Positions 1 to 9,917 of a stretch of 12,632 nt of DNA are shown here, piece by piece (position 1 is the stretch's first letter; each line of letters begins with the position of its first letter). A program made the position numbers and the translations under genes. This DNA is from a virus. Lineage: Duplodnaviria > Heunggongvirae > Uroviricota > Caudoviricetes. The stretch is from positions 1 through 12,632 of IMG/VR virus record IMGVR_UViG_2778261687_000011, one strand, 5' to 3'. Under the pieces are notes generated by a model, which saw only the letters and a list, made by a program, of their open reading frames with translations, was not told the DNA's origin and ran no database searches.

Positions 1-546
1 AAGCGTGCGTATTGCCTGAAAACACAACCCGCTACGGGGGAGACTTACCCGAAATCTGATTTATTCAACAAAGCCGACTTCCGTCTGATGTCACGAGAGG
101 TCGTAGAGAATATCAAACAGCTACCCGAAAGAAATCTATTTATGAAGGGGGTTCTTTCGTGGGTTGGCGGAAAAACTGATGTTGTAGAATACGTGCGTGC
201 TGAACGTGTCGCAGGTGATTCTAAATTCAACGGCTGGAAGTTGTGGAACCTAGCACTTGAAGGTATAACAAGTTTCTCCACATTCCCGCTGAGGATGTGG
301 ACATACATTGGATTGTTTGTTGCCGGTCTATCTTTTTTATATGGCGCGTGGATGATTGTAAACACTCTTGCCTTTGGCAACCCAGTTCGTGGTTACCCTT
401 CGCTCCTTGTTTCAATCCTTTTCCTTGGCGGAATACAGTTGATTGGAATCGGTGTGTTAGGTGAATATATCGGCAGAATTTATATTGAAACCAAACAACG
501 TCCAAAATATGTTCTAAAAAATGTCAGGAAAGACAGCAATGACTAA
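1..546 (+). CDS. gtrB: Bactoprenol glucosyltransferase GtrB (GT2 family), 5'-partial; continues upstream of the window
   Basis: Frame 1 is open from base 1. The translation [14 protein letters not shown]...[21 protein letters not shown]...[16 protein letters not shown]...[12 protein letters not shown] closely matches my recollection of the GtrB C-terminal half, including the two C-terminal transmembrane helices. The first ~25 codons match less well than the rest. Confidence 0.88.
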
Positions 547-1957
547 CGATTCTAAAAATTTAGGAATTTTACTGTTTGTTGGTTTTTTATATGTGCTCCC
601 TTTCATTATCGGTGGACATTTATACGTAGATGATTTTTTGCGTATAGAGATACCATATGGATGGGATCATAATGGTAGATATTTTTCAACAGTCCTGTCT
701 AATCTCATTGGCAACGGTCATATTCTAATATTATCTCCATTTACTATGATGATTGCAGCGCTGTTCCTCATTTACCCTGCACACAAAATCAGCAGTGTAT
801 TTTTTGGTAGCGAGTTGAGTTTTGCGAAAGCATCATTTTCTTTATCACTTTTACTATCCCCATTTTTTATAAATAATCTTGCCTATCAGTATGATGCAAT
901 TTTGATGTCCGCATCTGTAGGCATGGCTGCGATGGCAGCGTACTACTGTTATCTCGGAGTTTCTTCAAAGCTCTTTTATGCTACAGCATTCATTCTGCTA
1001 ATACTGGCAATTTCATCTTATCAGTCATCTATTGCAGTATACTTATCAATTATATTGATACTAGCCATACACAGCATGATGTCAGGTAAAGCAACTATTT
1101 TTAGTGCTATTAAGTTTTGCGTCATTGCTGGCGTTCTAATGCTTGTTGCATACGCACTATACAAGAAGGTGATTTTTAACCCCGATGATATGAGTGAGTA
1201 TACAAAGATGCGCTCTGAAATGCTGGGCATTGACATGTATACGTTAAAAAACATGTTCACCTCCTATCTTAAATTCAAGGAAATCTTTTATGATTTATTC
1301 CATGGGTTTATAGGAAAAATTTTACTTTTGTATGTTACGCTTCCTTTTGCTGTGATTTTATTAAAAAAAGGATTAAGCTTGCCTGTAAAATTAACGAGTG
1401 TTGTTTTTTACTTGTTTATTATCTTCCTTTCCTTTGGCATGCTACTGATTCTAAAAAATCCACCAGTGACCAGTCGTTCTATGGTTTCGGGCGGAGTGAT
1501 AATCATGGCATCGACAATGATTATTTTTACTAATATCACCTTTAAAAGGCTTGATTGGGTATCAGTTGTGCCGATGGTAATATCATTTATTTTTGTAAGC
1601 TGTTTCTTCATGCTTCAAAATATAAATTATTCCAGAATTGATAATGTCTTAATGCGTACAAATGCAGTCTTATCGCTGCAAAATAAAGATTACCAGAAAA
1701 TTTATCTAAAAATAAACAAACCCAGTTCAGCATCAGAACCATACAGAAAAGCATTTCCTTTCATATACAATATGAATAGATACTTCTATACTGGCAATCC
1801 TTTCATGGATAAAGTCTCCCATTTAAAACTGGGGTATAGTATCTACCCGTGCGATTCTGGTTGTAAAAAAATAGAATCAGATGGAACTGTGAGATTCAAC
1901 GCTCAAAACATGATATTGAAAGAGCGAAATGGACAAGCAATTGTTATAGTGAACTAA
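539..1957 (+). CDS. GtrC-like type-specific O-antigen glucosyltransferase (polytopic membrane protein)
   Basis: ORF of 472-478 aa starting immediately after gtrB (ATG 539 overlaps the gtrB stop at 544-546, AGGA about 10 nt upstream; alternative in-frame ATG at 521 has no SD). Many hydrophobic segments in the first ~370 aa and a hydrophilic C-terminal domain; AT-rich like gtr loci. Assignment is by operon position and topology, not by recognised sequence motifs. Confidence 0.65.
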
Positions 1958-2020: not shown

Positions 2021-2690
2021 ATGGCAAAAACAGACATTAATAACGGAGTTGTAGTTGCACGTTTTATTGCTATATTGCTGGTAGTTTTACTACATGCCAG
2101 TGCCGGACCTTTCGGGGCTAAACTCGCTCCTGACTGGGAGTGGGCCAATATTTACAGCGCAATATCGAAACAATGCATTGGTATTTTCATTGTCATAACT
2201 GGCTTTCTCTATGCAAATAAAGAAATTGAGTTTAAAGGCTTCATCCTTAAAGGAATAAATCTCCTTGTAATTCCACTGGCGTTTTGGTGGGTAATTTACG
2301 CAGCATATTTGATACTTTTTAAAAATGCAGGCATAGATAGTTTTAGCCCTATGAAACCATCAAGCATACACCTTTGGTTTATGTACGATTACATTGCAAT
2401 TTATCTTTTTGTTCCAATGATAGTTATGGGATGTAGAGAAATAAGAACGCGCTATAGCCTTTTGATATTCGCAGTTCTGTTTTACAGCACATCCTTATAC
2501 CCAGAGCTTAATGCAATAGGAATACCCGCTCCGAAGATAAACGTTCCATTTGCAAGTTATTTAATGCTCTATGTTTTTGCAGGTTACATAGCTGCACGCA
2601 AGGAAGATTTAATAATTAAGTACAGGATTGTATTTGCTCTCCTTTCATTGACACTTTCCGTTGTTACCATTTATGTTAATAAAGGGATAC
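2021..2690 (+). pseudogene. Acyltransferase family 3 (Oac/OafA-like O-antigen acetyltransferase) gene, 3'-truncated at about 2690
   Basis: N-terminal ~224 aa are hydrophobic with acyltransferase-3-like segments (VVARFIAILLVVLLHASAGPFG, IFIVITGFLY, HLWFMYDYIAIYLFVPMIV). At about 2690 composition switches from AT-rich to GC-rich and the rest of ORF 2021..3250 becomes Arg/Pro/Ser-rich nonsense that is the reverse strand of phage genes. Full-length family members are about 330 aa. Confidence 0.6.
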
Positions 2691-3030
2691 CGAATTCAAT
2701 CAGGCGCCAGTGTGGCGTCGGGGCGTTTTCACCGAGATCAGGATGTTTTTTCAGGACTGCACCATGCAGCACGCCGATCCTAAATCCGAGGTTACCGGTG
2801 GTTTTGAAGATGCGGTTGTTCCATCGCATAGCCACGTTTGCGGCAATGCTGCGGCCTGTTAACGGGTCATCAATCCTGGCGGCGTTCGCTTTTGCTTTTT
2901 CGACAATCACGTTACCAGCGCGCCGGAGTGCGGCCCGTCCACCGCGACGACGCAGATCGTCACTGATGGATGATAGTTTCCCCACCAAACTCTCAACTCC
3001 AGTAATGCTGATATCAATGCCGTCAGCCAT
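2671..3030 (-). CDS. HK97 gp10-family tail-completion/head-tail joining protein, C-terminally truncated at the junction
   Basis: Translation contains IDDPLTGRSIAANV...TPHWRLIEFG, typical of the HK97 gp10 family, but ends 5 codons after EFG with residues (IPLLT) encoded by AT-rich non-phage DNA. Family members normally continue about 40-50 aa further. GAGGAG SD upstream of ATG 3030. Confidence 0.65.
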   Translation of the reverse strand: MADGIDISITGVESLVGKLSSISDDLRRRGGRAALRRAGNVIVEKAKANAARIDDPLTGRSIAANVAMRWNNRIFKTTGNLGFRIGVLHGAVLKKHPDLGENAPTPHWRLIEFGIPLLT

Positions 3031-3355
3031 CGTTCACTCCTCGCGAGCATGGCAGCGTCAGATATTCCCGGCCGCTTTTATCGTCTTCCAGCACGCCCTG
3101 AATATCGTAAACGCGTCCACGGTAAAGAATGCGGTGCTTATCCGTGACATCATCACGCCAGCGAATAGTGATCCGTGTGGTTACCTCGTTTTGTCCGGCC
3201 TGCGCGGCCACAAAATCGCGAGCAGACAAATCGGTAACGTTGGCCCATAGCTCAGCCATGTCAGCCCATCCATTAACCACCGCGCCGGTAACCGGGCTCT
3301 GCGTTTTAACAGGCTTCTGAAGCATGATTCGTTTATTGAGCTTCCCCGCCTGCAT
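3023..3355 (-). CDS. Phage head-closure / head-tail adaptor protein
   Basis: 110-aa ORF in the expected position between connector and gp10-like gene; ITIRWRDDV...RILYRGRVYDIQGV resembles the head-closure family; AGGGGG SD upstream; 8-nt overlap with the downstream gene. Confidence 0.7.
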   Translation of the reverse strand: MQAGKLNKRIMLQKPVKTQSPVTGAVVNGWADMAELWANVTDLSARDFVAAQAGQNEVTTRITIRWRDDVTDKHRILYRGRVYDIQGVLEDDKSGREYLTLPCSRGVNDG

Positions 3356-3357
3356 GA

Positions 3358-3537
3358 TTACCCCCTGGGCTTGCCGCTGAGGTAAGTATGCTGTGGAAGT
3401 TCAGCTTCACTCTCTTCAACTACCATTGACTGGTAGATCACCGCCGTCAGAGCTTCGTTTGACTCCGCCAGCCGATTCATCGCTGCTGTCTGGGCTGCCA
3501 TTGCTGTCAGCAGCTGGTTTACCTGTTGCTCGTTCAT
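3358..3537 (-). CDS. Small hypothetical protein (59 aa), head-module gene not present in the ORF track
   Basis: Hand translation of the minus strand gives MNEQQVNQLLTAMAAQTAAMNRLAESNEALTAVIYQSMVVEESEAELPQHTYLSGKPRG with a natural helical composition; its stop lies 2 nt before the head-closure ATG. Weak SD. Competes with the overlapping ORF 3416..3607. Confidence 0.4.
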   Translation of the reverse strand: MNEQQVNQLLTAMAAQTAAMNRLAESNEALTAVIYQSMVVEESEAELPQHTYLSGKPRG

Positions 3538-3597: not shown

Positions 3598-3930
3598 TCA
3601 GTGCCACCTCCTGTGCTGCATCAGTAGTGCTTCAACTCCAAGCGGTAGCTCAGAAGTAATATTTCCGACATTGACTGCTTCCCGGTTTGCGTACCAGTGA
3701 CCGATAAGAAGCAGCATTGCCGCCCATATGCCGGAAGTGAAAAGGATCTCACGTGGCGGCATTTCCCCTTCCACTGGCGGCGTCAACGACTCCACCAGCG
3801 TGCCGTCGCAGAATTTCTCAACATAATCGACGGCAGCCGATGCGTAGGCCGCAATAAGAGAATCTTCGGCGTCGCTATCAACCCTCAGATGCGTCTTTAT
3901 CTGCGCCATCTGCTCCGCGCTTATTTCCAC
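3598..3930 (-). CDS. Phage gp6-like head-tail connector protein
   Basis: N-terminus AQIKTHLRVDSDAEDSLI and C-terminal HWYANRE...LPLGVEALL are characteristic of the gp6-like connector family. GTG start at 3930 with GGGGT upstream; an in-frame ATG at 3909 is an alternative start. Confidence 0.75.
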   Translation of the reverse strand: MEISAEQMAQIKTHLRVDSDAEDSLIAAYASAAVDYVEKFCDGTLVESLTPPVEGEMPPREILFTSGIWAAMLLLIGHWYANREAVNVGNITSELPLGVEALLMQHRRWH

Positions 3931-4120
3931 CTTTACCCCCGGTTTTGGCTTTTACAGGCTGTTCAGGATCGGAGGTTTTCGCCTTTTCGGGATCAACCTC
4001 TTCGGCCAGGTGCAGTTTTACCAGCGCTTCGCCGATTTCTTTCTTCACTACGCGGGTTTCGCCCTGGGATACTGTACCCAGGTGATAATGCGAGAACATA
4101 CGAAGAGCTTTAATTTTCAT
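3878..4120 (-). CDS. Hypothetical small protein immediately downstream of the major capsid gene
   Basis: 80-aa ORF starting 37 nt after the capsid stop; the N-terminal ~55 aa look protein-like, the Gly/Lys-rich C-terminus overlaps the gp6-like start by 32-53 nt and may be frame noise. No clear SD. Confidence 0.3.
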   Translation of the reverse strand: MKIKALRMFSHYHLGTVSQGETRVVKKEIGEALVKLHLAEEVDPEKAKTSDPEQPVKAKTGGKGGNKRGADGADKDASEG

Positions 4121-4156
4121 ACATTAAACGCGGCCATTGCTGACCGCGTCCTCCTG

Positions 4157-5320
4157 TCAGGAGCCAGCAGAAACCGCAATATCGCCAGTGACGATAGCTG
4201 CAGGACGATAGTGCGCCAGCGCCAGGCGTTCTTCGCACAGGATGGTCAGCATGTTTTTAACGAAGTTATCGCGATCCTGGTTGCTGATCTCGATAGTGGC
4301 ATCCATGCGGTCCCACACCTGCGATGCCAGACCAAACGCACCAACGGTAAATTTGCCTGCCGTCTGCGCCGTGGTCGAAACTACCGGCAGACCCCAGAGC
4401 ACTTTGGAGGCAAAGGCCTGTGGGCCGCCAAGGATGTAATTGCCGTTAGCATCTTTCAGCAGCGCGATACGGTGCCAGTCCGCCGGGTTGAGAATGATAC
4501 CGTCGGCTTCAAACTCGCTCAGCGACACCTGATAGATTGCATGCGCCAGAACATCAGCACCGGTATCTCCGGTCGCGTTGAGTGCAGTTTCGTAGTCGTT
4601 CGCCACCACGTTCAGCCCCTGGAGGTTGTCGCCGGTGCCATCACCGTTCAGCATCTGGTTTTCTTCCACCAGCGCCAGGCCATACATCATGCGGGAGTTG
4701 ATGTAGGACTGCAGTGCCGGGGCATCGTCCATGATCTGGCGCGACGCCTGGATCCAGTGAGCGATGGTTTTCACGTTCGCCGTTTCTTTGGTGAAGGTAA
4801 TGTTACTTTCCGGCTTGAGGGTACCTTCCGCCACTGGCGCCGCGGCGTTGGTAAACACATTTTCACGCACGTATTCAAGCGCGTTACTGGTGATGCGCCC
4901 CTGCGCCAGCAGGTCACGTACGGTCAGGCGACGCAGGCCCGGCATAAGGATACCCGGTTGCTGCTGCGGCAGAACCAGTGCGCCGGCGGAGTTCGCGCCA
5001 GAGCCGATCGCTTTGTCGAAGCTGGTCACTTTCGCTTTGGTACGTGAGCCGTCCCAGCCTTTCATCAGGTCTTCGGACACGCGTTCTGCAAAGGATTTCT
5101 GGGCGGTCTGTTCAGGCGAGTTGCCAGCCAGCTTCTGCTCAAGATCGAACAGTCGAGTGCCGGTGGCTTTCAGCTCATCCTGGGCTTTCGCCAGGTCGGT
5201 CTGCAGCTGCTTGTTGATTTCGCCGTTCTGGTTGATGGATTTACGCTGTTCCTCGATAAGCTCCTTCACTTCTTTCTGGGAGTTCTCGATCGCTTTTTCC
5301 AGGGTTGCTAATTCAGACAT
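4157..5320 (-). CDS. Major capsid protein, HK97 family (with N-terminal delta/scaffolding domain)
   Basis: 387 aa; coiled-coil N-terminal ~100 aa followed by a capsid domain, the same size and architecture as HK97 gp5; sits directly after the prohead protease gene; GGAG SD. Confidence 0.92.
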   Translation of the reverse strand: MSELATLEKAIENSQKEVKELIEEQRKSINQNGEINKQLQTDLAKAQDELKATGTRLFDLEQKLAGNSPEQTAQKSFAERVSEDLMKGWDGSRTKAKVTSFDKAIGSGANSAGALVLPQQQPGILMPGLRRLTVRDLLAQGRITSNALEYVRENVFTNAAAPVAEGTLKPESNITFTKETANVKTIAHWIQASRQIMDDAPALQSYINSRMMYGLALVEENQMLNGDGTGDNLQGLNVVANDYETALNATGDTGADVLAHAIYQVSLSEFEADGIILNPADWHRIALLKDANGNYILGGPQAFASKVLWGLPVVSTTAQTAGKFTVGAFGLASQVWDRMDATIEISNQDRDNFVKNMLTILCEERLALAHYRPAAIVTGDIAVSAGS

Positions 5321-5331
5321 GTTTTGCTCCG

Positions 5332-6012
5332 TTAGGGATTCCGCAGGTTAGCGGCAAAGGAAGTTATGCGCTGTGCCAGCGCGTCAATGTCGCCGCCGCC
5401 GAACTCGCTTCGGCCTGCGGACTTCACGCGGGCGATAAACGCCTGCGCTTCAGCACGCGTAAGGCCGACTGAATCCCTCAGCCAGGCCTCCGCGTCACGA
5501 ATGGTTTTAATGCCGTCAATGCTCTTCATGGCGGTTACGCCCGCCAGTTCGTTGGCCGGGAATGTGCAGACACTGATTTCCCGCAGATAAGTAATGTTTT
5601 TGAAAATGAGGCCGGACGTGCCGACGGTGTAATCGTCAGGGCCGACTGAAAAACCCACCGACATGCCTTCAACCGTGCCATGCTGCATGGCGGCCTTCAG
5701 ATCCTCGGCCAGGCTCAATCTGGGTGTGAGCTGCCCTCGGACATAAAGCCCCTTCTCGTCTTCGTGCATGGCATCCCATTTGCCAACCGGGATGGCTCGC
5801 GTCTGGTGGTTGAAGAACATCGCCACCTTGCGGCTCTGGTTAGCCACCACACCAGCGAAAGCCCCGGGCAAAATAATGTCGCCGTCGGCGTCGGTGTTAT
5901 TGAAAACCGAGGCATACCCTTCAAACGTTCCCTTGCTGCCGTCGCCGGTGAACTTGATTTCGGTCTGGTCGAACGCCAGCGTCTTGTGAATATCAGGCAT
6001 CGTGGCCCCCAT
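5332..6012 (-). CDS. Prohead maturation protease, HK97 family (peptidase U35/S78)
   Basis: 226 aa, between portal and capsid genes; sequence ADGDIILPGAF...GLYVRGQL...FSVGF is typical of HK97-type prohead proteases. An alternative ATG at 5998-6000 (M5) has a better SD. Confidence 0.9.
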   Translation of the reverse strand: MGATMPDIHKTLAFDQTEIKFTGDGSKGTFEGYASVFNNTDADGDIILPGAFAGVVANQSRKVAMFFNHQTRAIPVGKWDAMHEDEKGLYVRGQLTPRLSLAEDLKAAMQHGTVEGMSVGFSVGPDDYTVGTSGLIFKNITYLREISVCTFPANELAGVTAMKSIDGIKTIRDAEAWLRDSVGLTRAEAQAFIARVKSAGRSEFGGGDIDALAQRITSFAANLRNP

Positions 6013-6039
6013 AAAAATTAAGCCCCGTCATTGCGGGGC
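6011..6039 (-). terminator. Terminator-like hairpin (GCCCCG-CAAUGA-CGGGGC) plus UUAAUUUUU at the portal/protease boundary; possible attenuator
   Basis: Read from the sequence; the stem encodes the last portal codons and the U tract runs into the protease start. Confidence 0.25.
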
Positions 6040-7289
6040 TCTTTGTTTGTTCCGAGGTCGGTAATGGGAACGTTCTGCGACTGGCGCGTCGCCACATCAC
6101 CGCCAGGCAAAGGCGGAAGATTATCCAGTCGCCGCACTTCGTTAACGGTACGGATCCCTGTATTAACCATGGTTTGCATGAAGGTAGCGCGGCTCGCTGA
6201 GTCACCACGAAGCAGGCCATCAAGGTTATGCTCGGCGTGCAGCCTTCCCTGATCGGACTCTTTTACCAGCCAGCGCTCTATGCTGTACTCCCAGCGATCG
6301 AGATAGGGCTTCAGGGTGTACTGGAGAAAGCCGAGGTTCTGCTGTTCAATGCCGCTGCCCCATGAAGTTGTTTTTTCAACATCACCAACCAGGTGCGGCG
6401 GAACACCGTAAAAGCGCGCCAGCTCTGCCACCTGAAACTTACGGGCCTCAAGCATCTGTGCGTCCTGCGGCGAGATGCCTATCGGCTGCGTGGTGAACCC
6501 GCTCTCAATGATCCAGAGGCGTTTTCTCACCGGGCCGCCGGCAATCTCCTTAAAGTTTTCCTCCAGCTGTCCGCGCTGCTCTTTGGTCAGCACCTTGCCG
6601 TCAGTCATCAGGATTTGCGGTGATTTGGCGCCGTTGGCGAAAAACTCCCGCTGGTTATCTTCCATAGCAATAGCCACGCCTGCAGATTTGGCGCTGAACG
6701 CCAGCGGCGATAACCCGACCAGCCCGTTAAAGCCGAAGCCTTTCAGGTGGAATATTTCTTTCGGCTTAAAGTCCACATACTCGCTGTCGCGCCGGTACCG
6801 GTAGATGACATTTTTTCCATCGAGCCGGACATCCATATTCGCGCTCATCAGCGGAAGCAGGCTGATGACATCGCCGACGCTGTTTCGCTCCACATGCGCG
6901 TAGGCATTGCCGTAGGCGCAAAGCTGCATTGTCATTGCCTCGCGAAACTCCAGCGCGGTCATGAAGTTGTTGGGCCGGAAGCGAAGAAGCTTCGCCAGCG
7001 GGTTCTGGTTGTCGACTTTCTTTCGCTGATCATCGATGGTTTCAAAAACATCCAGCGGTAACGAGGCTGTTACGGTGGAGATGAGCCGGATGCAGGCCCA
7101 TACGGTGCTGATCGACATGTTGCGCTCATCGCTCACCACCGATTCCCCGACGGTGCCGTGAGCTGATGTGCCCGCCATCTGCGAGCCATTATCCGGTGAA
7201 ACCAGGCGGCCACCGGTCAGAATAGAGGCCATGCGCGCCCAGAATGGCGATCGCGTTCGCAGGTCAATGCTGTAATCGGTATCTGCCAT
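6018..7289 (-). CDS. Portal protein, HK97 family
   Basis: 423 aa, immediately downstream of TerL and upstream of the protease; size and position match the HK97 portal family. Confidence 0.9.
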   Translation of the reverse strand: MADTDYSIDLRTRSPFWARMASILTGGRLVSPDNGSQMAGTSAHGTVGESVVSDERNMSISTVWACIRLISTVTASLPLDVFETIDDQRKKVDNQNPLAKLLRFRPNNFMTALEFREAMTMQLCAYGNAYAHVERNSVGDVISLLPLMSANMDVRLDGKNVIYRYRRDSEYVDFKPKEIFHLKGFGFNGLVGLSPLAFSAKSAGVAIAMEDNQREFFANGAKSPQILMTDGKVLTKEQRGQLEENFKEIAGGPVRKRLWIIESGFTTQPIGISPQDAQMLEARKFQVAELARFYGVPPHLVGDVEKTTSWGSGIEQQNLGFLQYTLKPYLDRWEYSIERWLVKESDQGRLHAEHNLDGLLRGDSASRATFMQTMVNTGIRTVNEVRRLDNLPPLPGGDVATRQSQNVPITDLGTNKEPRNDGA

Positions 7290-7291
7290 TT

Positions 7292-8824
7292 TTAAACGCT
7301 CAAAAAGTTGTAAATGAAATCGTTAACGTCGCCCGGATCCTCCACCTCATCACTGGTCTGTGCGCCGATAGACATCGCCAGCGCCACCATGCCGTCGATA
7401 CGGCCGCTCGATTTGCCTTTCACAAACTTGCGGTTACCGGCGGGGTCGGTGATTACCGTGGCGTTTTTGGCGCACATCTCGAGGATCGGATGGTTGCCGT
7501 GCTTCAGTTGCGCGCCGAGCAGTTTAGCTTCCAGCTCCCTGAGCGCAGGCGACATGGAGACAAAACCCTGGCCGAATTCCACGAACCGCTCGAGCTCCGC
7601 CTCAGTGAAACCGGCGTCGATGAGATGCGGGCGAAGGAAGCGCATGTTGTAGCGGTCGAACGCCAGCGCCCGGACGTTACAGATATCAAAAACGCGCCGC
7701 AGCTCCCGTGCAATAAAGGCGTACTCAATGGCTTTGCCCGGCGTCGTGTTCAGCCAGCCCTGCTTCGCCCATATGTCATAAGGCACGCGATCGTTACGCG
7801 CCTTGTCCGCCAGCCCCTCTTCAGGTAGCCAGAACTTACAGTGCACATCGCCCTGCGTTGTGTTGAGCACCAGCGCGGTCAGGTCCGACACGCTGGAAAG
7901 GTCCAGCCCGCCCCAGACGGTAGCGCCCGCCAGTTCGCCAGGCTCTTCTTTGTTCATGTGCCAGACGGTCTGGCTGACGAACGGGCTTTTCGCCTCAACC
8001 CTGCGGTTCAGTACAAGGTTCTCAAATTCAGCCTGGCGCGACGGGAGGCGCTTGGCGCTGGCGGCCATATCCAGCACTTCTTTCTGGTTCATGAACACAT
8101 CGAAGGCCGGGTTAGCCAGCCTGATGGCTTCGACAGAGAAAGGATCGATATCTTCCGGCGCGGTCTGCAGCCGTACCACCGTTCGCGGATCGGCACCGGT
8201 CAGGCCATCATCAATCAGCAGGCTGAGCAGGTCGCTCGCATCGGGTGCCTGGGTGCTGATGATTACCGAGATAGGGTTGTCCTGAGCAGCGGTCGCGGTT
8301 TCCAGAGCTTCATAAAGCGGGTCACGCGGCCCGCGCACCTGGCCCAGCTCATCATGGGCGACAAATCGCGGCGAGAAACCGTAGGCCGTTGTGGCCTCAG
8401 CGCTCAACGCGCGATAGTAAGAGCCCAGTTCAGGGCAGTGAATCTCTTTGGCTGAATCTTTTATGGCAACGTATTGCATCAGTGTCGGATTCATACGACA
8501 CATTTTCGAAGCAAGGTTAAACAGAATTGCTGCCTGATCGCGTGATCGGGCTGCGGAATACAATTGTGAGTTAGGCGCTGATTCGGGACCAACCAGATAA
8601 AGCAGCATGATTATCGCTGTCTCTACCGTCTTGGCGTTCTTTCGCCCCCTGCTGATAATCGCGCGGCGAGTACCATGCTCATTATCAAATATTGCTCTGA
8701 AGTCATCCTTCATGAAAGGAGCCATCTTCAGAGGCTGGCCTACGTACTTCCCTTCAGGGATCAGGATGTGTTTCTCACACCAGGCTATATTGCGCTCAGC
8801 CCTTGTAAGCTTTTTTTTCGCCAT
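7292..8824 (-). CDS. Terminase large subunit
   Basis: 510 aa; Walker A-like SRGRKNAKT near the N-terminus, Walker B-like FVAHDELG, C-terminal nuclease-like region; follows the TerS gene after a 13-nt gap. Confidence 0.92.
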   Translation of the reverse strand: MAKKKLTRAERNIAWCEKHILIPEGKYVGQPLKMAPFMKDDFRAIFDNEHGTRRAIISRGRKNAKTVETAIIMLLYLVGPESAPNSQLYSAARSRDQAAILFNLASKMCRMNPTLMQYVAIKDSAKEIHCPELGSYYRALSAEATTAYGFSPRFVAHDELGQVRGPRDPLYEALETATAAQDNPISVIISTQAPDASDLLSLLIDDGLTGADPRTVVRLQTAPEDIDPFSVEAIRLANPAFDVFMNQKEVLDMAASAKRLPSRQAEFENLVLNRRVEAKSPFVSQTVWHMNKEEPGELAGATVWGGLDLSSVSDLTALVLNTTQGDVHCKFWLPEEGLADKARNDRVPYDIWAKQGWLNTTPGKAIEYAFIARELRRVFDICNVRALAFDRYNMRFLRPHLIDAGFTEAELERFVEFGQGFVSMSPALRELEAKLLGAQLKHGNHPILEMCAKNATVITDPAGNRKFVKGKSSGRIDGMVALAMSIGAQTSDEVEDPGDVNDFIYNFLSV

Positions 8825-8837
8825 TCGCTAATCAGCC

Positions 8838-9272
8838 TTAATCAATTTCCCAGGGCTTTTTCTCCCGAGCCAGATTGCTGTTGGCCCGGCCAACAGTTTT
8901 GGGATCGGCAGTAGCCTGGCGGGTAATCCGCAGGCGGGTCGCAAGAGAAGATGCCGATCGCACCTCGCGCTCGCGCATCGTGAGCAGCCTGTCGTAGCGC
9001 TTCAGCCCGTCTTCGCGGGACAACCACTCGAGCTCAAACTCTTCAATCTGGGTGGTGAGCAGCCGGGCCTGCACCACATGCCGACAGTACATCTCCAGCA
9101 TGTCCCGGTGTGTTTCGGTGAATGAGCTGGCCGGGTTGTCATTAACCAGCCGGACCCAGACGTTAATCTCCGGATCGCTCAGGTGAATGGACGGCTGCAA
9201 CCTGCTTTCAGCCAGTGCCGGCAGCGAGACAGCAGACGTCGCAGCCAGAGACTTTCTGCCTCGCTGTGCCAT
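8838..9272 (-). CDS. Terminase small subunit (probably P27/HK97-like family)
   Basis: ATG at 9270-9272 (aa 45 of the longer TTG-initiated ORF 8838..9404) preceded by AAGGA. Basic N-terminus MAQRGRKS; position directly upstream of TerL and downstream of HNH. The family name is an inference. Confidence 0.72.
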   Translation of the reverse strand: MAQRGRKSLAATSAVSLPALAESRLQPSIHLSDPEINVWVRLVNDNPASSFTETHRDMLEMYCRHVVQARLLTTQIEEFELEWLSREDGLKRYDRLLTMREREVRSASSLATRLRITRQATADPKTVGRANSNLAREKKPWEID

Positions 9273-9404
9273 CGCGTTTTTCCTTTTTTTCTGGACGTTT
9301 TTAAAAATAAAACTGGGAGCGCGGTCTTTAAGAATTTGGTACCAGAGTTTTACCCCTCCCCCTCCCTTACCAACATAAATATGAGAATTGATATCATTTC
9401 TCAA

Positions 9405-9626: not shown

Positions 9627-9917
9627 TTACCAGATAACACGGCCTTCATTATCGAACTCGGTGACCGTTCCGCCCTTCTCCATCCTCTGCTTTACCGAGT
9701 CGTGGCAACGTTTGCAAAGTGACTGAAGATTATCCGGATCATGAAAGAGCCTATCGTCTCCTTTGTGCGGGATGACATGGTCAACGATCGTTGCCGCTAT
9801 CACCTGATTGCGCCGGAGGTGGAACTCACAAAGAGGTTGCTTCTGAAGCTGGTGATAGCGGAGTCGGTACCAACGCTTGGAATTGTAGAGGCTATGCCAA
9901 GGTGAATTGGATGCCAT
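9627..9917 (-). CDS. HNH endonuclease (terminase-associated)
   Basis: 96 aa with Cys/His pairs (CEFH...DHVIPH...CKRCH) typical of phage HNH proteins; lies upstream of terS as in HK97-like cos phages; GAGGGAG SD. Confidence 0.88.
   Translation of the reverse strand: MASNSPWHSLYNSKRWYRLRYHQLQKQPLCEFHLRRNQVIAATIVDHVIPHKGDDRLFHDPDNLQSLCKRCHDSVKQRMEKGGTVTEFDNEGRVIW

What the first reader, a model, noticed from the sequence alone, without database searches (positions are those of the whole stretch)
3878..4150. Hairpin and overlapping small ORF directly after the major capsid gene
Seen in sequence: after the capsid stop there is a stem (acgcgg ... ccgcgt) with a 10-nt loop, then an 80-aa ORF with no SD whose C-terminus overlaps the gp6-like start. 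Highly expressed capsid genes are often followed by stabilising hairpins, so the small ORF may be spurious or an unannotated small head protein.
Basis: seen in the sequence. Interest (0 to 1): 0.2.

Follow-up and report, generated by a model that had tools for sequence, protein, structure and literature searches.

The report
Conserved hairpin and small gene after capsid
Just after the capsid gene of this HK97-like prophage there is a real, conserved RNA hairpin followed by a real small gene of unknown function, which is an ordinary phage arrangement with one mildly interesting feature: the hairpin sits between the ribosome-binding site and the start codon.

Summary
All genes here are on the minus strand. 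Both parts of the observation are real.

The hairpin:
- It is a 9-10 bp stem capped by a GCAA tetraloop (4128-4149), not a 6-bp stem with a 10-nt loop.
- In 98 distinct related loci the 8-bp core is always present. The loop is GNRA in 97 of 98, and all 8 pairs show compensatory changes.
- It lies 8-9 nt before the AUG in 95 of 98.
- There is no Shine-Dalgarno (SD) sequence in that spacer. An SD-like motif (AGGAGG in this window) sits directly 5' of the stem.
- Only 3 of 98 have a U-tract, so it is not a typical intrinsic terminator.

The 80-aa ORF:
- It is a genuine gene (PHROG 18204, E 1.4e-40), with third-codon-position variation dominating.
- It always lies between an HK97-type capsid gene and a gp6-like connector gene.
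- Its N-terminal 45 residues are predicted with confidence (pLDDT 90-93) to adopt the L9-N / PriA-YqbF fold. Lambda gpFI's C-terminal domain and B. subtilis YqbF share this fold, and both are also encoded just after a capsid gene.
- The rest of the protein is a variable acidic linker and a basic tail.

The overlap: the 53-nt overlap with gp6 is real but specific to this subfamily. Other relatives mostly have an ATGA overlap.

Best reading: a hairpin-bridged ("split") ribosome-binding site for an FI/YqbF-like head accessory protein. The mechanism and the protein's function are inferred, not shown.

The parts
4157..5320 (-). HK97-type major capsid protein gene; TGA stop at 4157-4159
   Evidence: PF05065 E 3.4e-54 and phrog_10 E 4.9e-88. 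A homologue (>=69% identity) lies upstream of the hairpin in all 98 distinct related loci.
4150..4155 (-). Shine-Dalgarno-like AGGAGG, directly 5' of the stem and 29 nt before the ATG
   Evidence: Sequence. Anti-SD duplex energy is -10.3 kcal/mol here. Across relatives the 5' flank averages -5.6 kcal/mol and is <= -4 in 85 of 98, whereas the spacer is never <= -4. The best anti-SD site abuts the stem in 77 of 98.
4128..4149 (-). RNA hairpin ACGCGGUCA-GCAA-UGGCCGCGU: 9 bp with one U.G, 8-bp conserved core at 4129-4148, GNRA loop at 4137-4140
   Evidence: Fold. In the close subfamily the 9 pairs of this stem are paired in all 33 distinct sequences. Across 75 aligned sequences, 98.8% of cells pair, all 8 pairs show double-sided changes, and 0 of 500 shuffles reach the observed values. 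The loop is GNRA in 97 of 98. The sequence is unique in the window.
4121..4128 (-). 8-nt spacer (UUUAAUGU) between the 8-bp core and the AUG; contains no SD
   Evidence: Spacer length is 8 nt in 79 and 9 nt in 16 of 98 distinct relatives, although its sequence varies freely.
3878..4120 (-). Small gene, 80 aa. Residues 1-45 (3986-4120) form a folded domain; residues 46-80 form an acidic/Pro linker and a basic Gly/Lys tail
   Evidence: phrog_18204 E 1.4e-40 over its full length. 106 homologue clusters. Pairwise diversity at codon positions 1/2/3 is 0.26/0.21/0.52, and synonymous:nonsynonymous is 52079:11648. AF2 N-domain pLDDT is 90-93 and the remainder about 50.
3935..3940 (-). SD of the gp6-like gene (GGGGGU here, GGAGGU in several relatives), inside the small gene's Gly-Gly-Lys codons
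   Evidence: Sequence. Conserved 4 nt upstream of the conserved GTG.
3878..3930 (-). 53-nt out-of-frame overlap between the small gene's 3' end and the gp6-like gene's 5' end
   Evidence: The GTG at 3930 is present in every close relative. The ATG at 3909 is lost in the Klebsiella group and in L042. Within the overlap, the gp6 frame is the more constrained. Distant relatives mostly have an ATGA 4-nt overlap.
3598..3930 (-). gp6-like head-tail connector (adaptor Ad1) gene
   Evidence: PF05135 E 3.4e-14 and phrog_40 E 9e-31. A homologue lies downstream in 89 of 98 loci.

Best explanation
Shown:
- Region 3878-4155 (minus strand) holds a conserved intercistronic RNA hairpin and a genuine small gene.
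- The layout is capsid stop, then an SD-like purine motif, then a GC-rich 8-10 bp stem with a GNRA tetraloop, then an 8-9 nt spacer with no SD, then the AUG of a 58-119 aa protein, then the gp6-like connector gene.
- This layout is conserved across a large clade of HK97-like (pro)phages.

Inferred mechanism for the RNA. The hairpin is part of the small gene's translation initiation region. By folding, it removes 20-22 nt from the path between the only available SD (AGGAGG here) and the AUG. That cuts a non-functional 29-nt spacing to about 7-8 nt, as in the 'split' ribosome-binding sites of T4 genes 38 and 25. It may also act as a 3'-exonuclease barrier for the abundant capsid message. The two roles are compatible.

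Inferred function for the protein. It is a small head-assembly accessory factor of the lambda gpFI / B. subtilis YqbF kind. It has a 45-residue L9-N / PriA-YqbF-fold domain (the fold of the head-binding domain in gpFI), a flexible acidic linker and a short basic tail. gp6 is then translated from its own SD and GTG inside the small gene's 3' end.
For: Real gene:
- PHROG 18204 match over the full length, E 1.4e-40.
- 106 homologue clusters across Enterobacterales, and remote relatives with the same architecture.
- Third-codon-position diversity is twice that of positions 1 and 2.
- Linker length changes keep the reading frame.
- Synteny MCP / small gene / gp6 holds in 98, 98 and 89 loci.

Selected RNA hairpin:
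- 98.8% of cells are paired, with compensatory changes at all 8 pairs. 0 of 500 shuffles reach the observed values, and slid controls give <=49% pairing.
- A U.G / C-G / U-A series occurs at one pair in the close subfamily.
- GNRA loop in 97 of 98, varying mainly at N.
- The flanking spacer and capsid codons vary while the stem does not.

Bridged ribosome-binding site:
- Stem-to-AUG distance is 8 or 9 nt in 95 of 98.
- The spacer never binds the anti-SD (mean +0.85 kcal/mol), whereas the 5' flank does (mean -5.6; -10.3 in this window).
- The same geometry occurs in HK97 itself in front of gp6.
- It also occurs in remote phrog_2616 relatives ('MKVLIS...' proteins).
- Precedent: T4 genes 38 and 25, where the spacing falls from 22 to 5 nt and from 27 to 11 nt (PMC3014915).

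Not a plain terminator: only 3 of 98 have >=5 U in the tail, against 46 of 122 in a generic sample of the same hairpin motif. The terminator scan did not list it.

Protein:
- Two AF2 runs give the same topology, with N-domain pLDDT 90-93.
- FI follows the lambda capsid gene E.
- YqbF lies between the capsid gene and gp6-like YqbG (PMC11526630).
Against: - There is no experimental evidence of any kind.
- The SD-like motif is weak in many relatives (AAGGG, CAGGG; down to -3.1 kcal/mol), and part of it can pair with the U's 3' of the stem.
- In lambda, the hairpin after gene E lies upstream of a normal SD for FI. A post-capsid hairpin therefore clearly can exist without bridging an RBS.
- The same GGGGCGGG-GNRA-CCGCCCC motif is a common post-ORF hairpin in unrelated phages, often with a U-tract.
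- The constant spacer length could partly reflect shared ancestry.
- The hairpin alignment was anchored on the best stem found in each sequence, which favours pairing.
- For the protein, there is no sequence-level link to FI. Pfam PF14000 gives no hit even at E<=10, and hhalign probability is 0.3%.
- The fold is small and common, and it matches GINS and L9 better than FI. The helical N-terminal domain of gpFI is absent.
Confidence: 0.42

Rival explanations
1. The hairpin is only an mRNA-stability or processing element. It acts as a 3'->5' exonuclease barrier that lets the capsid message outlive the distal head-completion genes. The small gene would be translated independently of it, by termination-reinitiation from the capsid stop 36 nt upstream or by SD-independent, S1-mediated initiation on the A/U-rich spacer.
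For: - The hairpin begins 7 nt after the stop codon of the most abundant virion protein.
- Lambda has a UUCG-capped hairpin at the same place, upstream of FI's own SD.
- The same GC-rich GNRA motif follows ORF stops in many unrelated phages.
- A stable GNRA-capped stem of -16 kcal/mol is the kind of structure known to block PNPase and RNase II (established knowledge of intercistronic stabiliser hairpins such as malE-malF REP).
Against: - A pure stabiliser has no need to sit 8-9 nt from the next AUG in 95 of 98 sequences.
- It also has no need for the only SD-like motif to be at its 5' base.
- It does not explain how a gene with no proximal SD is expressed.
Confidence: 0.3
2. The hairpin is a leaky intrinsic transcription terminator that lowers transcription of the genes after the capsid gene. 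This is how the equivalent HK97 feature is annotated.
For: - The HK97 record annotates the 22-nt equivalent as 'putative terminator', and the HK97 version is followed by UUUU.
- Remote 'MKVLIS' relatives have a 7-8 U tract.
Against: - In this family only 3 of 98 have >=5 U in the 8 nt after the stem. Many have 0-2, and the Klebsiella group reads UAAAUGAG.
- The consensus scan does not call this one a terminator.
- Essential neck genes lie downstream in the same operon.
Confidence: 0.1
3. The small protein is a virion structural component rather than an FI-like packaging chaperone. It could be a decoration or cement protein on the capsid, or a minor neck protein.
For: - The gene sits between capsid and connector genes.
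- There are weak PHROG hits to 'head-tail connector' families: phrog_748 E 0.054 and phrog_2322 E 0.038 for a remote relative.
- A paper on a PBSX-like phage speculates that YqbF and YqbG act in head-tail connector assembly (PMC11526630).
Against: - HK97 builds a complete virion without this gene, so it is dispensable for the basic architecture.
- Half of the protein is predicted disordered with a variable repeat length, which is unusual for a fixed lattice component.
- No proteomic data are available.
Confidence: 0.25
4. The 80-aa ORF is a chance open frame and only the hairpin is functional.
For: No Pfam or NCBIfam family, no proximal SD, and it is left unannotated in one phage record.
Against: - phrog_18204 E 1.4e-40.
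- 106 homologue clusters.
- Frame kept through 3n-nt indels.
- Synonymous:nonsynonymous about 4.5:1.
- Confident fold prediction.
Confidence: 0.02

Closest known systems
Split (hairpin-bridged) ribosome-binding sites of phage T4 genes 38 and 25
   Same: The SD and AUG are too far apart in the linear sequence (29 nt here; 22 and 27 nt in T4). A stable, phylogenetically conserved hairpin lies wholly between them and reduces the effective spacing to 7-8 nt (5 and 11 nt in T4). Both occur at an intercistronic junction of late structural genes (PMC3014915).
   Different: T4 is supported by mutagenesis, reporter fusions and DMS probing, whereas nothing is tested here. Here the hairpin directly follows the capsid stop codon and resembles a terminator or stabiliser stem. 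The SD is weak in many relatives.
HK97 gene 5 / gene 6 intergenic 'putative terminator'
   Same: Same position, same layout and probably homologous: UGA-UGGAGG-GGGCGGG-GAAA/GUGA-CCCGCCC-UUUUAACGU-AUG. It has a GNRA loop and about 8-9 nt to the next AUG, with no SD in between.
   Different: In HK97 the gene served is gp6 itself, because the small gene is absent. HK97 has a 4-U tract, which this window and most relatives lack.
Lambda gpFI (Pfam PF14000, PDB 2LSM), the DNA-packaging chaperone
   Different: There is no detectable sequence similarity. The domain order is reversed, with the folded domain N-terminal here. A short basic tail replaces gpFI's ~40-residue helical N-terminal domain. The protein is 80 aa against 132 aa. 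In lambda the post-capsid hairpin precedes a normal SD.
B. subtilis skin-prophage YqbF (PDB 2HJQ; SCOP d.344.1 PriA/YqbF domain)
   Different: YqbF is 111 aa with a second folded part. Its function is also unknown.
Ribosomal protein bL9 N-terminal domain
   Different: No Pfam PF01281 hit. The context is a phage head module, and there is no evidence of RNA binding.

Membership tests
PHROG 18204 / 2616 (small phage proteins of unknown function) | Significant match to the family profile | tested here: met
   phrog_18204 E 1.4e-40 over 1-80 of 80; phrog_2616 E 2.7e-11. Remote relatives with the same gene layout also fall in phrog_2616.
Lambda gpFI (Pfam PF14000 Packaging_FI) | Sequence match to PF14000 or to a gpFI profile | tested here: not met
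   No Pfam hit at E<=10 for any of 26 members. hhalign of the family against an FI alignment gives probability 0.3%. The BLASTP 'ALVKLH' 6-mer match falls in non-equivalent structural elements.
Lambda gpFI (Pfam PF14000 Packaging_FI) | Gene immediately downstream of the major capsid gene and upstream of the head-tail joining gene | tested here: met
   for this family; for lambda.
Lambda gpFI (Pfam PF14000 Packaging_FI) | Fold of the head-binding C-terminal domain (2LSM) | tested here: inconclusive
Lambda gpFI (Pfam PF14000 Packaging_FI) | Second, helical N-terminal domain joined by a flexible linker | tested here: not met
   The linker is present: predicted disordered and variable in length. 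There is no second folded domain, only a basic tail of about 10-20 residues.
Lambda gpFI (Pfam PF14000 Packaging_FI) | Stimulates terminase-prohead interaction; binds the capsid protein | not testable with these tools
   Needs genetics or biochemistry.
YqbF-like (SCOP d.344.1 PriA/YqbF domain) | N-terminal PriA/YqbF-fold domain | tested here: inconclusive
YqbF-like (SCOP d.344.1 PriA/YqbF domain) | Encoded between the capsid gene and the gp6-like connector gene | tested here: met
   for this family; PMC11526630 for YqbF.
T4-type split ribosome-binding site | SD and AUG separated by more than a functional distance in the linear sequence, with no SD nearer | tested here: met
   29 nt in this window. 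The spacer never binds the anti-SD in 98 sequences.
T4-type split ribosome-binding site | Stable, conserved hairpin wholly between SD and AUG that restores a 5-11 nt effective spacing | tested here: met
   The effective spacing is 8-9 nt plus 0-3 nt.
T4-type split ribosome-binding site | Destabilising the stem lowers translation and compensatory changes restore it | not testable with these tools
   Only natural compensatory variation is available.
Intrinsic (Rho-independent) terminator | GC-rich stem-loop | tested here: met
Intrinsic (Rho-independent) terminator | U-tract immediately 3' of the stem | tested here: not met
   The tail is UUUAAUGU here. Only 3 of 98 relatives have >=5 U in 8 nt, and the terminator scan does not list it.
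Rfam RNA families | Match to any curated covariance model | tested here: not met
   The only hit is a chance mir-145 match on the other strand, E 3.8.

The most novel reading that the evidence does not exclude
The small protein, whose folded domain has the fold of the rRNA-binding N-terminal domain of ribosomal protein L9, might bind the conserved GNRA hairpin that precedes its own start codon. It would thereby autoregulate its own translation, or set the capsid-to-connector expression ratio. That would make this a protein-RNA feedback switch in the late operon of HK97-like phages. The evidence does not exclude it, but HK97 keeps the hairpin without the protein, and the FI/YqbF parallels point to protein-protein function.
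Probability: 0.04. Interest if true: 0.6.

Novelty: new member of a known kind. Interest (0 to 1): 0.3.

Why it matters
For annotation:
- The 80-aa ORF should be called as a gene in HK97-like prophages. At least one phage record misses it.
- gp6 in this subfamily most likely starts at the conserved GTG (3930), not at the ATG that PGAP chose in a relative.

For biology:
- If the bridged-RBS reading is right, it would be a second, widely conserved natural example of the rare T4-type split ribosome-binding site. It would sit at the point where a phage must drop from about 400 capsid subunits to about a dozen connector subunits per virion.
- It would also give a testable candidate for an FI/YqbF-like head accessory factor in HK97-type phages. 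HK97 itself lacks this gene.

None of this changes current understanding of phage assembly. It is a modest refinement.

Tried and rejected
- **Mini-ORF.** AUG 4137 (MAAFNV*) overlaps the small gene's start as AUGA. It is rejected because the AUG is part of the loop and 3' arm. The peptide is MAA* in the Klebsiella group, is fused in frame in Pantoea/Erwinia annotations, and is absent from distant relatives whose 3' arm has no AUG.
- **EF-hand.** The family profile hits centrin C-terminal EF-hands (E 0.0013). It is rejected because the calcium-ligand positions are S/Y/L, and two AF2 runs give a beta-rich fold with pLDDT above 90.
- **'ALVKLH' match.** This 6/6 BLASTP match to gpFI aligns a helix here to the first strand region of the FI domain, so it is a coincidence. 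hhalign aligns different segments and is not significant.
- **Family libraries.** Pfam, NCBIfam and Rfam give nothing.
- **Dispersed repeat or DNA-level site.** Each hairpin sequence tested occurred once per window or locus: the window's own sequence once in the window, on the coding strand, and the distant subfamily's motif once in each matching locus, on the coding strand. U.G pairs are the majority state at one position, which argues for RNA.
- **Chance test within the window.** Not significant on its own. The case rests on comparison with relatives.
- **C-terminal tail GNKRGADGADKDASEG as a selected protein feature.** In the 53-nt overlap, variation concentrates at gp6 third positions, and the gp6 frame has the better synonymous:nonsynonymous ratio. 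Distant relatives end at an ATGA junction. This extension therefore looks like a read-through into gp6 after loss of the ancestral stop. A basic Lys-rich tail upstream of it is nevertheless general.
- **Popovic et al. 2012 (gpFI structure).** I could not obtain the paper. What I say about it is from memory.

Full report
**Setting.** The window carries the head module of an HK97-like prophage on the minus strand:

| Gene | Coordinates |
|---|---|
| HNH endonuclease | 9627-9917 |
| Small terminase | 8838-9404 |
| Large terminase | 7292-8824 |
| Portal | 6018-7289 |
| Protease | 5332-6012 |
| Major capsid protein (MCP) | 4157-5320 |
| 80-aa ORF | 3878-4120 |
| gp6-like adaptor | 3598-3930 |
| 59-aa ORF | 3358-3537 |
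| Head closure | 3023-3355 |
| Short HK97-gp10-like gene | 2671-3030 |

The tail genes are missing. A truncated acyltransferase gene on the other strand abuts the phage DNA near 2670-2700, so this copy is a prophage remnant.

**Observation: the hairpin in this window.** After the capsid TGA (4159-4157) the RNA reads C-AGGAGG-ACGCGGUCA-GCAA-UGGCCGCGU-UUAAUGU-AUG.
It is predicted in both the MFE and centroid structures and is worth -16.2 kcal/mol.
- On its own it is not statistically remarkable.
- The ORF, the lack of a proximal SD and the overlap with gp6 are all as described.

**The hairpin is selected.** I collected DNA around homologues of the small protein from viral contigs and genomes. 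This gave 170 loci and 98 distinct upstream sequences.
- Every one has a stem of at least 7 bp with a 4-nt loop at the same place.
- The loop is GCAA (66), GUAA (19), GAAA (9), GGAA (2), GUGA (1) or GAAG (1).
- In the close, enterobacterial subfamily the stem is almost invariant, while the adjacent spacer and capsid codons vary. One pair runs through U.G (25), C-G (7) and U-A (1).
- Between subfamilies the stem sequence differs (CGCGGUCA/UGGCCGCG against CGGGGCAG/CUGCCCCG and variants). On a 75-sequence alignment all 8 pairs show double-sided changes, 98.8% of cells pair, no shuffle out of 500 reaches the observed values, and slid registers give at most 49% pairing.
- Caveat: the sequences were anchored on their best stem, which favours pairing. 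However, the element is at a fixed position and is visibly homologous.
- Each hairpin sequence tested occurred once per window or locus, on the coding strand. No Rfam family matches.

**What the hairpin is positioned for.**
- The distance from the 8-bp core to the AUG is 8 nt in 79 sequences, 9 in 16, 10 in 2 and 7 in 1, although the spacer sequence is free to vary.
- The spacer never pairs with the anti-SD (mean +0.85 kcal/mol; none <= -4).
- The 10 nt 5' of the stem do pair with it (mean -5.6; <= -4 in 85 of 98; -10.3 for AGGAGG in this window).
- Every other gene in this operon that I checked has an ordinary SD 4-7 nt before its start, or a weak one.
- The linear SD-AUG distance of 29 nt is far beyond what works. 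With the 22-nt hairpin folded it becomes 7 nt.
- This is the arrangement shown experimentally for T4 genes 38 and 25 (PMC3014915).
- HK97 itself has the same design, UGA-UGGAGG-stem-GAAA-stem-UUUUAACGU-AUG, but there the AUG belongs to gp6. The record calls the stem a 'putative terminator'.
- Remote relatives in phrog_2616, picked up by a motif scan, again show GGAG, a GNRA hairpin and about 10 nt before the AUG of a 58-63 aa protein with the same architecture.

**Arguments for caution.**
- In lambda, a UUCG-capped hairpin follows gene E, but FI has its own GGAGGAG after it.
- The GGGGCGGG-GNRA-CCGCCCC motif is a common post-ORF hairpin in unrelated phages, often with a U-tract and a downstream SD.
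- A post-capsid hairpin is therefore a general device, most simply a stabiliser or attenuator. The bridged RBS may be a secondary adaptation in this lineage.
- Only 3 of 98 family members have a U-rich tail, so termination is unlikely to be the conserved function here.

**The small gene.**
- It matches phrog_18204 end to end (E 1.4e-40) and phrog_2616.
- It has 106 homologue clusters in Escherichia, Klebsiella, Enterobacter, Citrobacter, Cronobacter, Pantoea, Erwinia and others.
- A full HMMER sweep of 1.84 billion representatives finds only 22 proteins at E <= 0.001, so the sequence family is narrow.
- All members share three parts: a conserved N-terminal domain of about 45 aa (MKIKALRxFSHYHxGxxxxGExRxVxxExxxALVxxxLAE), a low-complexity acidic/Pro linker with PE or PEQ repeat expansions (total length 58-119 aa), and a Lys/Arg-rich end.
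- Diversity at codon positions 1/2/3 is 0.26/0.21/0.52, and synonymous single-step differences outnumber nonsynonymous ones 4.5 to 1.
- All 98 distinct loci have an MCP homologue upstream, and 89 have a gp6 homologue downstream.
- It is rare in E. coli, found in 20 of 5426 complete genomes, where PGAP calls it a hypothetical protein. One phage record leaves it unannotated.

**Fold and likely role.**
- AF2 with the diverse alignment gives pLDDT 90-93 for residues 1-40 (four short strands, a helix, a strand) and about 50 for the rest. An earlier run gave the same topology.
- BFVD returns many small uncharacterised phage proteins.
- gpFI and YqbF are both encoded right after a capsid gene (PMC11526630).
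- From memory of Popovic et al. 2012, the gpFI C-domain is the head-binding part and YqbF was noted as a structural relative. I could not retrieve that paper.
- There is no sequence-level support. I therefore treat 'works like FI/YqbF' as an inference from fold plus synteny, and I do not file the protein in PF14000.

**The overlap with gp6.**
- In the close subfamily a GTG preceded by GG(A/G)GGU-AAAG is invariant. The overlap is always 53 nt (47 in one case). The in-frame ATG 21 nt further on is lost in the Klebsiella group and in L042, so GTG 3930 is the likelier start.
- Most distant relatives end the small gene with ...AAAAAAUGA, the classic 4-nt coupling overlap.
- Within the 53 nt, variation falls mainly on gp6 third positions.
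- The last ~17 residues here therefore look like a read-through extension after loss of the ancestral stop. The stop is now provided by the conserved Val-Asp codons (GUUGAU) of gp6.

**Verdict.** The 'spurious ORF' option is refuted. The feature is an ordinary but well conserved intercistronic module.
- I put about 0.95 on 'real gene plus selected RNA hairpin'.
- I put about 0.4-0.45 on the bridged-RBS mechanism, which is not exclusive of a stabiliser role.
- I put about 0.35-0.4 on an FI/YqbF-like head accessory function.

Noticed in passing
window 6020-6041 (minus strand): A second stable hairpin (GAGCCCCG-CAAUGA-CGGGGCUU, -15 kcal/mol) is formed by the last codons of the portal gene. It ends 7-8 nt before the protease ATG at 6012, and there is no SD in the U-rich spacer. 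The geometry resembles the capsid / small-gene junction.
   Followed up: partly
window 3358-3537 (minus strand): A 59-aa ORF lies between gp6 and the head-closure gene and matches phrog_2612 (E 4e-14). It is annotated as a hypothetical protein at the same place in relatives. This is another conserved small gene of unknown function in the neck module.
   Followed up: no
window 2021-3030: The prophage appears truncated. The HK97-gp10-like gene is 119 aa here, against 161-179 aa in relatives, and no tail genes follow. On the plus strand an Acyl_transf_3 ORF matches only profile positions 6-226 of 326. It then runs on as a spurious 409-aa frame through phage DNA. The junction is near 2650-2700.
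   Followed up: partly
window 521-1957 (+) and 1973-1998: A GtrII-type glucosyltransferase gene (PF14264, E 7e-25) is followed by a perfect 11-bp palindromic hairpin (TGATGCCAACACTTTTGTTGGCATCA). This suggests a serotype-conversion cassette next to the phage remnant, with a possible bidirectional terminator.
   Followed up: no
L176 1061-1102 (lambda 7161-7201): The lambda E-FI intergenic region contains a 7-bp stem with a UUCG tetraloop right after the E stop. A U-rich stretch and FI's own SD follow it. The hairpin position after the capsid gene is the same as here, but its relation to the ribosome-binding site differs.
   Followed up: partly
L178-L297 (viral contigs): The motif GGGGC(R)GG-GNRA-C(Y)GCCCC is very common in environmental phage contigs, nearly always 5-30 nt after an ORF stop. 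One contig (L236) carries it three times at 599-nt intervals.
   Followed up: partly
L090 2501-2857; L140, L150, L171, L174: The linker of the small protein expands through tandem PEQ or PE repeats, up to 15 PEQ units giving 119 aa. This indicates replication slippage in a region tolerant of length change.
   Followed up: no
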